Source of the DNA: Camelus ferus
Lineage: Eukaryota
DNA: 64,000 nt
Assembly: GCF_009834535.1 (NCBI RefSeq)
Contig: NC_045696.1
Location: forward strand, 59,584,001-59,648,000
Reading direction: 5' to 3'
Under the pieces are notes generated by a model. The model was not told the DNA's origin. It did no database searches and saw only the letters and a program-made list of their open reading frames with translations. Positions 2,337 to 52,679 of this stretch are shown here, one piece after another. Within the stretch, counting starts at the first letter, position 1. Each line of letters opens with the position of its first letter. The position numbers and the translations under genes were made by a program.

Positions 2337-2702
<366 letters not shown>

Positions 2703-24370: not shown

Positions 24371-27094
24371 GCAGCTTTTTTAGAGAGATTGATGAACTAT
24401 TTCATTATGAATCTATTTCACTCCTTGATGGTAAGAACACATCTTGCATCTCTGGAGACCCTGTAAGGAAGACAGTTAGGCCTCTGATTAGATTGAGGGC
24501 AGTAATGTCAACATAAGAAAACACTATTTGCTATTGATTGATGGCACTTACCAGGTGATGGGTATTAGCTGGGACTCATGCCAATGTGTTTGGGGGCACC
24601 AGAAGAGAGAGGTGAGTTTCTATTCTTCTTGGTGTGGCTGGAGTCACTCTTCATGTTTCTCCCACTCCATCCACAACATGATGAGTGGTGAAGGAGAGTT
24701 GTAGGCATCATCTTCATCCATTTTATTTCCTGTGTTCATCTCACATAAAAAATATCTATATATCAAGCAAGATAGCTGAAAATGAAGGGCTCAAGTCTCA
24801 GGGCGGGCAGGCAGCCCGCTCTGGATGATGTTCTAAGCAGGTGGCTGGCCCCTTTGATGAGTACCAGGCTTAGAGAGCCCATTTGCATGTCATGTGGCAG
24901 AGGTGAGCCCATGAGCTTCTCCTAGAAAGACACTTTGCCCAAGCCCATCATAACAAACACCAGAGATGCATGCAGAATGAAAATGAGCTGGGAAAAATCC
25001 ACATTGTGGCAGGAAGCAGGGAAGAGCCTCTACTTCTGCAGGTGGATCTTAAATTACATTTTTAAAAAGTAAACATGGAGGTCTAGTGTCATTCCACGAA
25101 ACCTAGCACTACAGAGGTAGAAATTTTTGTATTTTTTCTTATTTTTTTATTTCAGTCAAGGAGATGCTCTACCTCATCTCCTTGTTAATTAAAAACAGTA
25201 ACTGGAGGAAGCTGACTGCCAAAAGAACAAGCCATTCTTTCCTGTGTCTTACAGATATTTCAGGAGCTGATCTTGGAATTATGAAACTGACAGAAAAAAA
25301 TAAATGTGAAAAGATACTGAAATTATTACCATGTAACACCAGAAAAAAAATTTTACACTCTCCCATATTGTCCTTATGTAAAACACTATTTTTGCCTTGA
25401 GAAGTGAATTTCCCTTATCATGTACAGACTTTCCTTATTCGCCCCCACTGTATCAGGCAGGTGTGGTGGTGGGGGGTGATAAATTTCTGATGTTGTGAGT
25501 CACAGGGAGGAGGAAGTGTCCCAAAGGGGACTGATTTTTTATGTGGCCATACGTTGAGATTGTTGGTCTCCTCTGAGAGTGATCCCCATGGAAGTACACT
25601 ACCCTTTGGTGCCCTTTGGAAGTATTTATCTTCTGGGCTTTTGAGTCTGAGCCCCATTGTTGGTTGAGACTCTATTCATCCGTATCCATAACTGCATTGG
25701 GCCATAGATTCCAGGATGTGGACCCAGGGAAAGGATCTGGACAGAACTAAGAATCAGCAGACCCAGGTGGAGTCAGGGATCAGAAGGAGGCAAGCAATCC
25801 AGAGTGAGGATTTTCCCGAAGCCAAGGCTGAAACAGAAATAGCTGGACAATAAGAATCAAGAAACAGTACGGGTTACAACTTGCATGAAGTTGGAGATAA
25901 ATAGGAACCAAGAGGGCATGAATGTCAGAAGGCAAAAAGTTGAAAGTTTGGGTCAGAAAGCGGGCCAGCCCTGGAACTAAGGAGCAAAGCGTGTTTATTG
26001 TGATCTGTGACAGACGCCTCAGATGCATCATCTCATTTAATCCTCCCAACCAGCTCCTGAAGTAGGTAGCCTTTGAGGTAGAGAGAGACTTAAAGTCCTC
26101 TTGTACATATAAGGAAAGCGAAGTTGCTGGGGATTTAGGTAACTTGCCCAAGATCATGATTCTGACTCAGGGCCGGCTCCCCACTTTCCGTGTGGTCTAT
26201 CACAGCTAAGTAAGGGATCACATTCAAGTCACTAGAGGACAGGCTAGAGGACCTAGATAACTACGCAGCACCTTCACTCTGTCTCAGAGTTTGTTAACAA
26301 CCCTTCCTGAAGCAGAAATCTGTTGGAGGAAGGCTACTACAGGTGTGCTGGTGATAATGTGCGAATCGGAGCACTGGCTTGGAGCAGAGAGCGAATGTGT
26401 TTGCTGGGAGAGGTACACACAGGAAAAATAAGACAAGGAGGTGGGGAGGGGGTGAGCAAGGAATGGAGCCACAGCTTCTGTCTGGTGGGTATTGATTCGA
26501 GGCTCCCATCACAGGTCAGATGGTTGGCAGTTTATTAATCACACTGGCAGCCCTTGTCAGCGACTGGCTGGGCTTACTATGCTTTGAATCAGTAGAAGGA
26601 TAAGCAAACTCTCCAGGTGAGGGCACAATTTCGTGTGATGGTTTTTCCAAATGGATAAGCACTCAGTACCCCTGTGACACTGCTGGGGTGTGGTTATCAG
26701 GTGTGTTTGCCTGTGTCTGAGAAACAATATAGAGAGCTAGCATGTATTTCTTAGAGTTGCTCTTTTAGGGGACCTAAACAGTTGGCTAATAAAATCACCA
26801 CTGCCCAACTATTCTCTTGAGAGTTTACTTAACATCTAATGGTAAATTGCATCTGACCAGCTAAAAGAGAGGTGCCTTGGGCAGAAGTTCCTGAGACAGG
26901 GTCTTTTGGACTTTGTATTTCCCAATATGATGAAGAGGCTTGGTTGTGAATATTCTGGTATTGGCAGTCCCCTTGTGGGGACTGCCGTGTGCCGCCTTGT
27001 CTGGGGATGGACTCCAGAAAACCACCTCTTTGACCCCAGTTGATAATTAGGTAAGCAATCATCTGTTGAAGAGTTATTCCCTGGCAAAAGATGA

Positions 27095-34987: not shown

Positions 34988-35161
<174 letters not shown>

Positions 35162-39600: not shown

Positions 39601-41010
39601 CCCAATATGTAAAACAGAAAGAAGCCAGAGACTTGTACTGGGTCATTTCTGCCTGTTAGTTTACCTTTTCTAGCTTCATCCAGAAATTAGGAACCCAGAT
39701 GCTAATGTGGTCAATCAGGACTGAAGGCTGACTCAGGGGCAAAGCAAGGGAATGAGGGAGTCTAGGTTACTATAGGAGATCGTGTTAACATAGCGAATAC
39801 TGAGGACAGATTCAGGAGCAGGGGAAGGGAAGCCAGGAGGTGGCGGATAGACTGGGAAGAAGGCATAGGACTGTGTAGACTGCCGACTGGGATAAGGGTG
39901 AAGGGGGAGGTAGGGGTGAAAAGAGGAAGGGTCGTACTCCCATACGGGGAGTGCTGAATGGAGTGGCCTGGAGAATGGTCCCAGTGCTGCTGCCCACGAG
40001 GGCAGAAATCATTCAGGAGTAATTTACTGGGCTGCTAGCTGCCCTTTTCCACTGCCGGCTAAGCTATACTCTCCTCCAAGTGCAAAAGCCAAATTAGCAC
40101 TGGGCCATGGGGTTGAAATGATCCCAGCAGCTGAGGTGAGGATCATATTACCTCTTTAAAAAAAAAAGTCATATGGCTCATCCACATCAGTCCTTTATTT
40201 TAATAAATTTTAAGCCCATTTGGCTCTCTCCCTGCCACCCAGTTTTCCAGCCTGTTCTCTTCACCTTAATGTGAACTGAGAATGCAAACCACATTTAGCC
40301 TGAATCAAAAAATAAACTTTCTACAATATATATTATCATAAAGGCAAACTTAAATAATGTAATAATGCAGGGTTATGTGTTGAGCTGAATTATCTACTGT
40401 GCTGTTCTGCTCCCTTGGTGAGGTAACTAAGAGATGGTGTGAGATGCTACTCTTCTGCTTATTAACCTGCCAAATTTCTTCCTTCTACTGGAATCCTTTT
40501 AAAACTGATCATTCATGTTAAAATGATTGCATTATTGGCTGAGATTTGTTACATGGGGATGTTTTTTATGCTCTATGTTTATTTGCTCTGTAAAATGGGA
40601 CTACAGCAGTAATCTCCTTTGAAAACGCACAACGAGTTAATTTATAATTAGATTTGCAAAGGAAATTTAACTAATGTATGAATCAATCGTGGAGCATATT
40701 TATACATAACTGCATTTCACTAGCACAGCAACTGAAATGTCTTTAAAACGCAGAGTGATGCAAGTAGGAGAGAAGGAGTGGGGGCAGAAATTAAGGACCT
40801 GAGCAATTAGTTAATGAAAATGCATGATATACTTTTTCTAAATATGCTTTTAAAACAATGATATATTGAATCATCATGACAGCATGTTTGAATCAGTCAT
40901 TTAAAGCTTTTTAACTTTTCTGCATCTTTCCACTCACGCCTCACTCCACCCCTTCCCATACCACGCCTGGGTCATTCCCACGGACCTCTCTCTCCTCCCC
41001 TTGTGCCCAG

Positions 41011-41229
41011 TCCCTCTTTCATGCCACTTCCTTGCAGAAGACACACCAGAGCGCCCTGCAGGTGCAGCAGAAAGCTGAGGCACTGCTCCAGGCTGGCCAC
41101 TACGATGCCGACGCCATCCGGGAATGCGCTGAGAAGGTGGCCCTCCACTGGCAGCAGCTCATGCTGAAGATGGAAGACCGGCTAAAACTGGTCAATGCCT
41201 CAGTGGCCTTTTACAAAACTTCTGAACAG
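41011..41229 (+). CDS. KALRN: KALRN exon F (219 nt, or 192 nt from the alternative acceptor at 41038; phase 0-0): [SLFHATSLQ]KTHQSALQVQ...VAFYKTSEQ
   Basis: Acceptors ttgtgcccag (41009-41010) and cttccttgcag (41036-41037). Donor CAG|GTGAGA. Confidence 0.95.
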
Positions 41230-44421: not shown

Positions 44422-44571
44422 GTCTGTAGTGTCCTGGAGAGCTTAGAACAAGAATACCGGAGAGATGAGGACTGGTGCGGTGGACGAGATAAACTGGGGC
44501 CAGCGGCAGAGATCGACCACGTCATTCCACTCATTAGTAAACATCTGGAGCAAAAGGAGGCCTTTCTTAAG
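44422..44571 (+). CDS. KALRN: KALRN exon G (150 nt, phase 0-0): VCSVLESLEQEYRRDEDWCGG...HLEQKEAFLK
   Basis: Absent from the ORF track and translated by hand. Acceptor tgattcattag, donor AAG|GTCAGA. Confidence 0.96.
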
Positions 44572-44644: not shown

Positions 44645-44700
44645 TCTTCACCTCCACCACCGCCACCACTACCATCATCACCTCCACATCCTCCTCCTTT
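44645..44700. repeat. (CAC/CAT)n-like low-complexity tract
   Basis: tcacctccaccaccgccaccactaccatcatcacctccacatcc. Confidence 0.85.
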
Positions 44701-50649: not shown

Positions 50650-51151
50650 GTATGTTCAGAGCTTTCCCTACTTCGCCTCAGTTCTGGGGGCCATGCAGAG
50701 GCCCAGGTGACCAAGACTGGGGCAGTCCAGAAGAGGGTCAGAGCAGAGGCGGAGTAGAGATGGGAGGTGGGGATGAGGAGAGGGAAAAACAGGCTGTCAC
50801 TGACCAGGCATTCAGCCTTCACCAAGCACTCTCTTCAGAGTTTGGTACCAGGAGTTGGGAGAAGATGCTGGGGGCAGATTGTTACTAACTCATGGGTGAT
50901 ACTGGGCCTGGCCTCGAAGATTCCCCATTAATGAACAAGACACTCTCTTTGCTGGTGGGATGTTCCAGGTCTAACAAGGGAGGGCTCATTCATAACATCA
51001 ACTTCCAGACTAAGTACTGATGGAATCATGCCAGCATTTCCCAGATCCATCATGTTGTCCCAAATCACAAACCTTCACATCAGACCATTAGCATGTTTTC
51101 CTGCTAACAGCTGGCTTTCAGGGGCACTGAGTGGATTGTTTCCTCCCACAG

Positions 51152-51274
51152 GCGCTAGACTGGATCCAAGAAACAGGTGAATATTACCTCTCAACACATA
51201 CCTCCACCGGAGAGACCACAGAGGAAACTCAGGAACTGCTGAAAGAATATGGGGAATTCAGGGTGCCTGCCAAG
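51152..51274 (+). CDS. KALRN: KALRN exon J (123 nt, phase 0-0): ALDWIQETGEYYLSTHTSTG...EFRVPAK
   Basis: Acceptor tttcctcccacag, donor AAG|GTAGGA. Confidence 0.96.
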
Positions 51275-52679
51275 GTAGGAAGCATCCCAGAGCCTTCCCC
51301 ACATCCACACAGCACTGCCCGGGCTGGTCAGTCTCACATTGTGGAAGGGAGAACAGCCTCTATATGCAGAAGGGCTTGACCACAGAGGCATGGGGGGAAG
51401 CACAGGTAGGATCATCTCCTTGGAAACCTCAACATCCAAAGAGCTGCAGCTGCTGGGCAGAGGCTCTGCAGGCAGGAAATCAGCTCCTGCATGCTGTGCT
51501 TCCAAACAGTGCTCATCTTCGTGCTTCACACTCTGGAATCTGCTGTGTTCTCTCAGACCAAATATGGCGAGGGAACGCATTTGTGTGAAATGCACATTGC
51601 TTGTGGGAAGATCTGCACCCAGCCGTGGATTCTTGGCATTTGAATGGCTTAGGACGTCCACCTTACGGGAAGGGCCAGTGGCCATGGGTGGGTTCACAAG
51701 GCAGGTGAGTTTAGTTCTGGAGCTGATGACTTCCATCTGGCCTCAGCCCTGCAGATGAGCCAGGCTGGGGTCTCTGGGGAGCAAAACACGCACTGGTGCA
51801 CATACCACACACCCTCATGCCCCTGTTCACACTGAGGGGGACAATGCTGTCATGGGAGGAAATCTCCTTTTCATCTGTTCTCACAGCCAGGATTTGATCT
51901 GAGGATGCTTGGATTTGAATGAAATCTGATCTGTCTCAGTTCCCTCTTTGTAGCATCCTTGTCCCTCATGCTGGGCTCCCAGCCACAGAGGACCTTTCTT
52001 GGCATCACTGCCACGCATGACAGATGCTCTTCCCAGGGGGAGATCTGCTTTTGTGGGAATACCTGTCTTACCCAGAGATCCTCAGACACTACAGCAATAG
52101 TCCCTCTAGTTTGCTGCAACAAAATTAGGCCTTTAGCCTCATTCCAGAGCTAGTATTTCAGAAGTGCTTATCCACTTTGTGACTCCTACACTGTGAAGTT
52201 CTGGTAGTGGGGAACCTTCCCTGCATGCTCGCGAGCTTTTGGACCTCTTCACGCAATGTGAGAAGCTGTCAGTGCAGATAAGAGACCCATCTCACTACCA
52301 GCTAGAGCAAACAGCACTAGGAAGGTGGCAGATGCACAGAACCCTTTCCAAATCCAAGTGAAAATGGTTTTGAATCACCCACTTTGCATCTCTCTTTCCC
52401 TCTCCAATTAATGTCAACAATGACCCATGCATAGGCTGAATGGAATCAGGCCCACTGGTGTTCCTACTCACAAAGGATGGATCACAGCAGATACCCAGAG
52501 CTTCCTAGGATCAGACTCTGCCCTAACCAAAGAGGAAATGTGGAGAATCATTTAGTCAGTTTAACTTATCCTTCCTTTGCAATTCATCCATCCTCTTCCT
52601 GTCTTTCTCTTTTCTACTCACATTCTTACCACCATAATTGGGTTCCATGCTTTTCCCTTTCCTTCCTTCCAATCCTTCC

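What the first reader, a model, noticed from the sequence alone, without database searches (positions are those of the whole stretch)
40871..41040. Dense YCAY (NOVA-type) cluster over a double 3' splice site that toggles a 9-aa spectrin-repeat insert
Seen: two in-frame acceptors 27 nt apart (AG at 41009-10 and 41036-37) add or remove SLFHATSLQ, and CAG-AAG at 41035-40 also forms a NAGNAG. Eight YCAY tetramers fall within 40930-40981, two more lie inside the 27-nt insert (41019, 41024) and three are at 40871-40900. That is 13 in about 160 nt, where roughly 1 per 64 nt is expected by chance. A TGCATG (RBFOX element) is at 40821-26. Known: NOVA1/2 bind YCAY clusters and usually repress the 3' splice site they overlap; as I recall, kalirin cDNAs exist with and without this insert and TRIO lacks it. 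Inference: this is a neuron-specific switch in which NOVA blocks the upstream acceptor and alters a spectrin repeat one or two repeats before the GEF1-autoinhibitory region.
Basis: partly seen in the sequence, partly recalled or inferred. Interest (0 to 1): 0.7.

Follow-up and report, generated by a model that had tools for sequence, protein, structure and literature searches.

The report
Kalirin brain-versus-artery 9-residue splice switch

Summary
In detail: 13 YCAY motifs at 40871-41027, acceptors at 41009-10 and 41036-37, and an in-frame insert SLFHATSLQ in the KALRN spectrin-repeat-7 exon. TRIO has only the downstream acceptor. Both forms occur in kalirin records from fish to mammals.

The variant is already published (PMC11630257), with no obvious tissue preference claimed and no effect on RAC1 activation. 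Yet that paper's top-ranked coding sequences carry the insert in 5 of 5 brain isoforms and lack it in 4 of 4 aorta isoforms (tissue partly inferred).

The 90-nt flank is conserved in a distant amniote, with 4 of 8 intronic YCAYs aligned. It sits in a 102-nt AG-free tract laid out like DCC exon 17, where NOVA promotes the long form. KALRN is on a NOVA2-target gene list, with the event not named.

NOVA control of this site is untested. PTBP1/PCBP action on the pyrimidine tract and unregulated competition remain open. The RBFOX motif is not conserved and NAGNAG use is unsupported. No junction reads from this species were obtained.

The parts
34988..35107 (+). Upstream KALRN exon (first part of spectrin repeat 7, ends ...QLAIE); its donor is shared by both forms
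40821..40826 (+). TGCATG (RBFOX-type motif); not kept in L003, likely incidental
40871..40900 (+). Three outlying YCAY motifs, outside the conserved flank
40907..41008 (+). 102-nt AG-free, pyrimidine-rich zone before the upstream acceptor; the longest of the 12 acceptors scored in the window
40930..40981 (+). Core cluster of eight YCAY; those at 40930, 40934, 40946 and 40956 align with YCAY in L003
40933..40937 (+). CTCAC, predicted distant branch point (A40936), kept in L003; a second CTCAC at 40940-44 and TTAAC near 40914. No YTNAY lies 18-40 nt before the upstream AG
   Evidence: branch-point role is inference
40985..41008 (+). CU/C-rich polypyrimidine tract of the upstream acceptor, similar in L003 and fish; candidate PTBP/PCBP site
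   Evidence: factor motifs recalled
41009..41010 (+). Upstream acceptor AG (long form)
41011..41037 (+). 27-nt alternative segment coding SLFHATSLQ; doubles as the pyrimidine tract and AG (41036-37) of the downstream acceptor and holds two YCAY
   Evidence: 26 of 27 nt identical in L003, 20 of 27 in fish L004
41038..41229 (+). Common part of the exon (rest of SR7), donor GT at 41230-31

Best explanation
This is a vertebrate-conserved alternative 3' splice site in KALRN that adds or omits SLFHATSLQ in spectrin repeat 7, and brain likely favours the upstream (long) acceptor, most likely because NOVA bound to the intronic YCAY cluster promotes it, as it does at DCC exon 17. Shown: the two acceptors, both protein forms, conservation of the insert and the flank, absence from TRIO. 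Inferred: the upstream acceptor uses a distant branch point in a long AG-free tract; NOVA on the YCAYs 33-81 nt before it, and on the two inside the downstream acceptor's own pyrimidine tract, tips the choice to the upstream AG; cells with little NOVA, such as arterial smooth muscle, use the downstream, TRIO-like AG more. The insert is predicted to break the middle helix of SR7 with a short flexible bulge. Any function would more likely lie in partner binding or fine tuning of SR-GEF1 contacts than in switching RAC1 exchange on or off.
For: Both forms: 51 long and 17 short kalirin-type records among 120 listed homologues, with pairs from one species in fish and tortoise, and both junctions in human cDNAs. 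Tissue direction: 5 of 5 brain and 0 of 4 aorta top-ranked coding sequences in PMC11630257 Fig. S2 carry the insert. Conservation: flank 63 of 94 columns identical to L003, score 77 against a maximum of 54 in 2000 shuffles, while control stretches score 14 and 26; 4 of 8 intronic and 2 of 2 insert YCAYs are kept; three further records read through a similar flank. Paralogue contrast: TRIO has 2 YCAY, cluster score 0 and a 27-nt AG-free zone. Precedent: an intron-16 YCAY cluster is needed for NOVA to promote DCC-long (PMC4930329 passages); in this genome DCC has YCAYs at -131 to -26 in a 169-nt AG-free zone and next to the downstream AG. KALRN is among NOVA2-target genes with CLIP support in E18.5 cortex (PMC4930328). 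Structure: insert residues 356-364 of P0020 split the helix and have pLDDT under 50 at 356-363.
Against: PMC11630257 states that the spectrin hot spots show no obvious tissue preference; my 5-against-4 count uses top-ranked isoforms from the same RNA pools, which are not independent, and I could not see the figure. The NOVA2 list names the gene, not this event; KALRN has other alternative events (13-aa SR5 site, exon 37). Kalrn was not found in the readable supplements of three other NOVA papers (several large files could not be read). In L003 the YCAY count is not above its base composition (6 against 5.2, p = 0.42), and one conserved YCAY lies in the predicted branch point. NEO1 has the same layout here but its homologous site did not change in Nova double-knockout spinal cord. 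Fish kalirin keeps the two acceptors with only a weak cluster (score 6), which fish TRIO equals. Kalrn is also on a Qki target list. Low pLDDT over the insert partly reflects that only 30 of 60 alignment rows cover it.
Confidence: 0.45

Rival explanations
1. The brain/artery bias is real but is set by pyrimidine-tract proteins. PTBP1 on the CU-rich tract would repress the upstream acceptor in non-neural cells, or PCBP-type proteins on the C-rich tract would enhance it. The YCAYs are then largely a by-product of a C-rich, AG-free tract with a distant branch point.
For: The CU/C tract is kept in the window, L003 and fish (6, 4 and 7 CTCT/TCTT/TCTC words in the last 60 nt), while the close YCAY cluster is weak in fish. 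YCAY in L003 is at composition level. Long AG-free zones with distant branch points, and PTBP1 loss in neurons, are recalled knowledge.
Against: In this window YCAY exceeds the composition null, and four intronic YCAYs are position-conserved. A search for KALRN with PTBP1, splicing and smooth muscle found 0 papers.
Confidence: 0.25
2. The two acceptors simply compete in all tissues, giving a fairly stable mix kept by selection on the protein forms. No tissue-specific factor decides it.
For: The authors of PMC11630257 report no apparent tissue specificity and equal RAC1 activation by both forms. Both forms are recorded in many species.
Against: All four matched amplicon pools switch top isoform between brain and aorta at this site, whereas the 13-aa SR5 site is deleted in only 2 of the 4 aorta sequences. 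The flank is conserved far above neighbouring intron.
Confidence: 0.2
3. One reading: NOVA bound over the branch point and tract blocks the upstream acceptor, so neurons make the short form.
For: The cluster covers the predicted branch point. YCAY clusters spanning a 3' splice site act as silencers at Neo1 exon 27 and Stxbp2 exon 3 (PMC2014790 passages). It could hold in a subset of neurons with the most NOVA, hidden in bulk tissue.
Against: Brain top isoforms are long and aorta top isoforms short. The closest layout with a tested mechanism, DCC exon 17, goes the other way.
Confidence: 0.1

Closest known systems
Human KALRN SR7 9-aa splice hot spot (Mould et al. 2024, PMC11630257)
   Same: The same event: the human long junction carries the identical 27 nt and the short junction omits them.
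   Different: The paper gives no cis-element or regulator and calls the site not obviously tissue-biased. The YCAY cluster, the AG-free zone, conservation to fish and the brain-long/aorta-short pattern of its top isoforms are not discussed in the sections I read.
DCC exon 17 long/short (Leggere et al. 2016, PMC4930329)
   Same: In-frame alternative 3' splice site, intronic YCAY cluster in a long AG-free zone before the upstream AG, further YCAYs beside the downstream AG.
   Different: 60 nt rather than 27 nt; a U-rich tract with the cluster further up (-131 to -78) rather than C-rich at -81 to -33; NOVA control shown by knockout and minigene, untested for KALRN.
NEO1 site homologous to DCC exon 17
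   Same: Same layout in this genome: YCAYs at -104 to -31 and a 166-nt AG-free zone.
   Different: Reported unchanged in Nova double-knockout dorsal spinal cord, so layout alone does not prove regulation.
TRIO spectrin repeat 7 exon
   Same: Paralogous exon, 81% identical over 203 nt; its acceptor matches KALRN's downstream AG. SR6-9 inhibit Trio GEF1 and SR7 cross-links to GEF1 (PMC9467883 passages).
   Different: One acceptor, a near branch-point motif (CTGAC at -32), no cluster; 0 of 50 TRIO-like records have the SLFH-type insert. Autoinhibition was shown for Trio, not kalirin.

Membership tests
Conserved alternative 3' splice site | Two acceptors share one upstream donor and both junctions occur in transcripts | tested here: met
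   Human cDNA junctions and protein records with and without the insert. No reads from this species.
Conserved alternative 3' splice site | Both AGs and the reading frame kept in distant species | tested here: met
   L003, L004 and L005 keep both AGs 27 nt apart.
NOVA-regulated splicing event | Cluster of three or more close YCAY (score 0.6 or more, PMC2014790) | tested here: met
   log score 1.45 in the window, 1.0 in L003, 0.78 in fish. The threshold is lax: 63 + strand and 78 - strand loci of the window pass it.
NOVA-regulated splicing event | Cluster conserved at the orthologous position | tested here: inconclusive
   4 of 8 intronic and 2 of 2 insert YCAYs align in L003, but the L003 count is at composition level and the fish cluster equals that of fish TRIO. 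One amniote and two near-identical fish contigs only.
NOVA-regulated splicing event | NOVA CLIP tags on the cluster | not testable with these tools
   Gene-level listing only; no peak table naming Kalrn in the supplements read.
NOVA-regulated splicing event | Ratio changes on NOVA loss or gain | not testable with these tools
   KALRN is among 540 NOVA2-target genes, event unnamed.
NOVA-regulated splicing event | Brain differs from non-neural tissue | tested here: inconclusive
   5 of 5 brain long and 4 of 4 aorta short among top isoforms, against the authors' statement of no obvious preference.
   Top brain isoforms are long; bulk tissue only.
RBFOX-regulated site | Conserved (U)GCAUG near the site | tested here: not met
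   No GCATG in the 300 nt before the L003 acceptor.
Functional NAGNAG | Both AGs 3 nt apart are used | tested here: not met
   0 of 120 listed homologues lack the K/R; records are mostly gene models, so rare use is not excluded.

The most novel reading that the evidence does not exclude
After the TRIO/KALRN duplication, kalirin turned the ancestral pyrimidine tract of this exon into nine coding residues. Amniotes then built a distant-branch-point, NOVA-driven switch in front of it, so neurons make an SR7 with a helix break that changes how SR6-9 hold down GEF1 or bind partners, while smooth muscle makes the TRIO-like repeat. It would be an overlooked neuron-versus-vessel control point in a neuropsychiatric and vascular disease gene.
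Probability: 0.15. Interest if true: 0.6.

Novelty: new member of a known kind. Interest (0 to 1): 0.3.

Why it matters
The splice variant is on record, so the value lies in the proposed regulation and its direction. Kalirin is the main Rac GEF of dendritic spines and is also abundant in arteries. The insert sits one repeat before SR8, where TRIO disease variants release GEF1 inhibition. If NOVA sets this ratio, cDNA choice in kalirin experiments matters, NOVA2 disorders gain a candidate target, and KALRN becomes a second case of the DCC-type layout in which an upstream cluster promotes the acceptor instead of silencing it. Existing knockout RNA-seq and GTEx junction tables can test this quickly. 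The one functional comparison so far found no effect on RAC1 activation, which limits expectations.

Tried and rejected
RNA reads: the run search listed 24 runs with no tissue given for this species' own RNA runs. No reads were laid, so junction use in this species is open.

Solved structures: only distant beta-spectrin repeats and one unrelated weak hit, nothing for kalirin SR7. A single-sequence fold was too weak to use (mean pLDDT 55.5).

RNA fold of 40900-41060: not more stable than shuffles (z = -1.07); no structural switch is proposed. No tandem repeat was called at the site.

L007 (33% identity) was dropped as unrelated. The next exon of the L003 contig could not be reached, so the second cluster is untested in amniotes.

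Literature: 'Kalrn Nova YCAY' 0 papers; 'KALRN PTBP1 splicing smooth muscle' 0. The listings showed no title on NOVA control of this site; most were not opened. The library lacks most subscription papers, including the main NOVA target lists, so this does not show that the link is unpublished. Supplements of PMC6092797, PMC10287156 and PMC11836289 gave 0 hits for Kalrn; four files of the last were too large to read, and tables keyed by gene ID would be missed.

The scan's earlier findings gave nothing. Rejected: an RBFOX role, NAGNAG use, and the raw Poisson figure as the measure of chance.

Full report
OBSERVATION. There are 13 YCAY between 40871 and 41027, eight of them in 40930-40981. AG dinucleotides lie at 41009-10, 41036-37 and 41039-40, and TGCATG at 40821. 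Bases 41011-41229 translate to SLFHATSLQ followed by KTHQSALQ..., in frame with the upstream exon 34988-35107.

CHANCE. The window holds one YCAY per 57 nt, and a Poisson test gives 8e-6. The tract is 77% pyrimidine, so I used shuffles of the same bases without AG: 8 seen against 3.8 +/- 1.6 over the 102-nt AG-free zone (p = 0.016), and against 2.7 in the hand-picked 61-nt core (p = 0.0006). With the cluster score of PMC2014790 (methods section read) the site scores raw 28. That is second on the + strand, above all antisense loci (best 24) and well above the 11 other acceptors scored in the window (0-8). The cluster is real and moderately unusual.

THE GENE AND THE TWO FORMS. The exon is identical to mammalian kalirin records, and tblastn places a run of kalirin exons across the window. 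Of 170 hits, 120 were listed: 51 are kalirin-type with an insert (SLFHATSLQ 24, SLFHANSLQ 17, SLLHADSLQ 7, three single variants), 17 are kalirin-type with the clean short junction, 50 are TRIO-like with no SLFH-type insert, and 2 are unclassed. Named long records span mammals, birds, reptiles, frogs, coelacanth and teleosts, and long/short pairs come from single fish and tortoise species. These are mostly gene models, some are intron read-throughs, and the query favoured the long form. Human cDNAs show both junctions directly. None of the 120 lacks the K/R that NAGNAG use would remove. The TRIO exon of this genome has only the downstream acceptor, a near branch-point motif and no cluster. The hagfish record also lacks the insert. 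I infer that kalirin gained the upstream AG and turned the old pyrimidine tract into coding sequence.

CONSERVATION OF THE FLANK. A metagenome scan (5 confirmed of 165 candidates) gave a distant amniote kalirin locus (L003; bird- or reptile-like is my inference from its divergence), two near-identical fish kalirin loci (L004, L005) and a fish TRIO locus (L006). L003 matches the insert at 26 of 27 nt against 164 of 192 in the rest of the exon; third positions are 8 of 9 against 40 of 64, which is not significant (p = 0.11). The 90 nt before the upstream AG align at 63 of 94 columns (score 77; 2000 shuffles reach 54 at most; control stretches score 14 and 26). Four of eight intronic YCAYs align, one of them beside a gap, and both insert YCAYs are kept. 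Three further unnamed records read through a similar flank. Against this, L003's six YCAYs are what its composition predicts (p = 0.42), and the fish cluster is weak and equalled by fish TRIO. TGCATG is not kept in L003. The AG-free zone measures 104 nt here and 127 nt in L003, against 18-61 at the other acceptors, 32 in fish kalirin and 27 in TRIO (this measure includes the AG). The only YTNAY motifs within 100 nt are at -68, -75 and -97, and the one at -75 is conserved. A distant branch point is therefore predicted, not shown.

WHAT IS PUBLISHED. PMC11630257 (read: sections 19 and 22, part 1 of section 20, part of the methods, passages, and supplement part 1 plus passages; figures not seen) reports 13-aa and 9-aa deletions in SR5 and SR7. 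It says they show no obvious tissue preference, and that brain and aorta Kalirin-9 activate RAC1 equally. Its Fig. S2 lists the top-ranked isoform of each pool. Isoforms 268, 515, 245, 149 and 427 carry the long junction; 4061, 4031, 838 and 1358 carry the short one; the two exon-37 deletion derivatives of brain isoforms are long and were left out of the count. I matched junctions to isoform names by their order in the file. I assigned tissue from the text: the derivatives come from brain 268 and 515, 1C-KALRN-7 is brain-selective, and Fig. 5 marks deletions in aorta proteoforms. That gives 5 of 5 brain long and 4 of 4 aorta short (nominal Fisher p = 0.008; the pools share RNA and are not independent). 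The SR5 deletion is in only 2 of the 4 aorta sequences.

NOVA EVIDENCE. PMC4930328 (section 8, passages and supplement rows) lists KALRN among 540 genes with NOVA2-dependent, CLIP-supported events, without naming the event. PMC6429586 (passages) lists Kalrn among Qki targets. PMC4930329 (passages) shows that an intronic six-YCAY cluster is needed for NOVA to promote DCC-long, and that the homologous NEO1 site is unchanged in double-knockout dorsal spinal cord. I located both sites in this genome. Each has YCAYs in a long AG-free zone before the upstream AG and near the downstream AG, as KALRN does. PMC2014790 (passages) gives the opposite precedent, silencing by clusters that span a 3' splice site. 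Supplements of PMC6092797, PMC10287156 and PMC11836289 gave no Kalrn hit; unread large files may bear on this.

PROTEIN. In an AlphaFold2 model of P0020 built on 60 homologues (mean pLDDT 79.5), the insert (356-364) splits one helix into 337-356 and 362-382 and falls below pLDDT 50 at 356-363; only 30 of 60 rows cover it. That this is the middle helix of the repeat is my reading from recalled spectrin anatomy. PMC9467883 (passages) shows that SR6-9 inhibit Trio GEF1, that SR8 variants release this and that SR7 cross-links to GEF1. This was not tested for kalirin in what I read.

VERDICT. A known, ancient splice variant with a real and partly conserved YCAY-rich, AG-free flank. The best reading (0.45) is DCC-like promotion of the long form by NOVA in brain. 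No junction reads, CLIP or knockout data for this site were seen. Interest 0.3.

Noticed in passing
window 44648-44690: The strongest YCAY cluster in the window (raw score 56; nine motifs in 52 nt) lies about 75-120 nt after the donor of the next, 150-nt in-frame exon (44422-44571), where a NOVA enhancer would sit. It is low-complexity CAC/CAT sequence and has no counterpart in TRIO or fish kalirin. Conservation in amniotes was not tested.
   Followed up: partly
window 2613-2651: Two identical CAG|GTCAGC donors 39 nt apart give the known 13-aa SR5 variant ([13 protein letters not shown]) of PMC11630257.
   Followed up: partly
window 51146-51286: A 47-codon stretch matches 89% to the C-terminal part of the short human kalirin record P0007 (1198 aa) but not the two other kalirin queries; possibly an alternative terminal exon.
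   Followed up: no
window 24646-24745: A third YCAY-rich patch (10 in 100 nt, raw score 20) deep in an intron, next to TGCATG at 24884 and 24967.
   Followed up: no
L004 219-436; L006 1112-1229: Fish kalirin and fish TRIO each have an extra intron inside this exon, at different positions.
   Followed up: no
L008 1313-1481; L009 1312-1478: The DCC and NEO1 long-form acceptors both have AG-free zones of about 165-170 nt holding their YCAY clusters; a long AG-free zone may be a shared mark of such alternative acceptors.
   Followed up: partly
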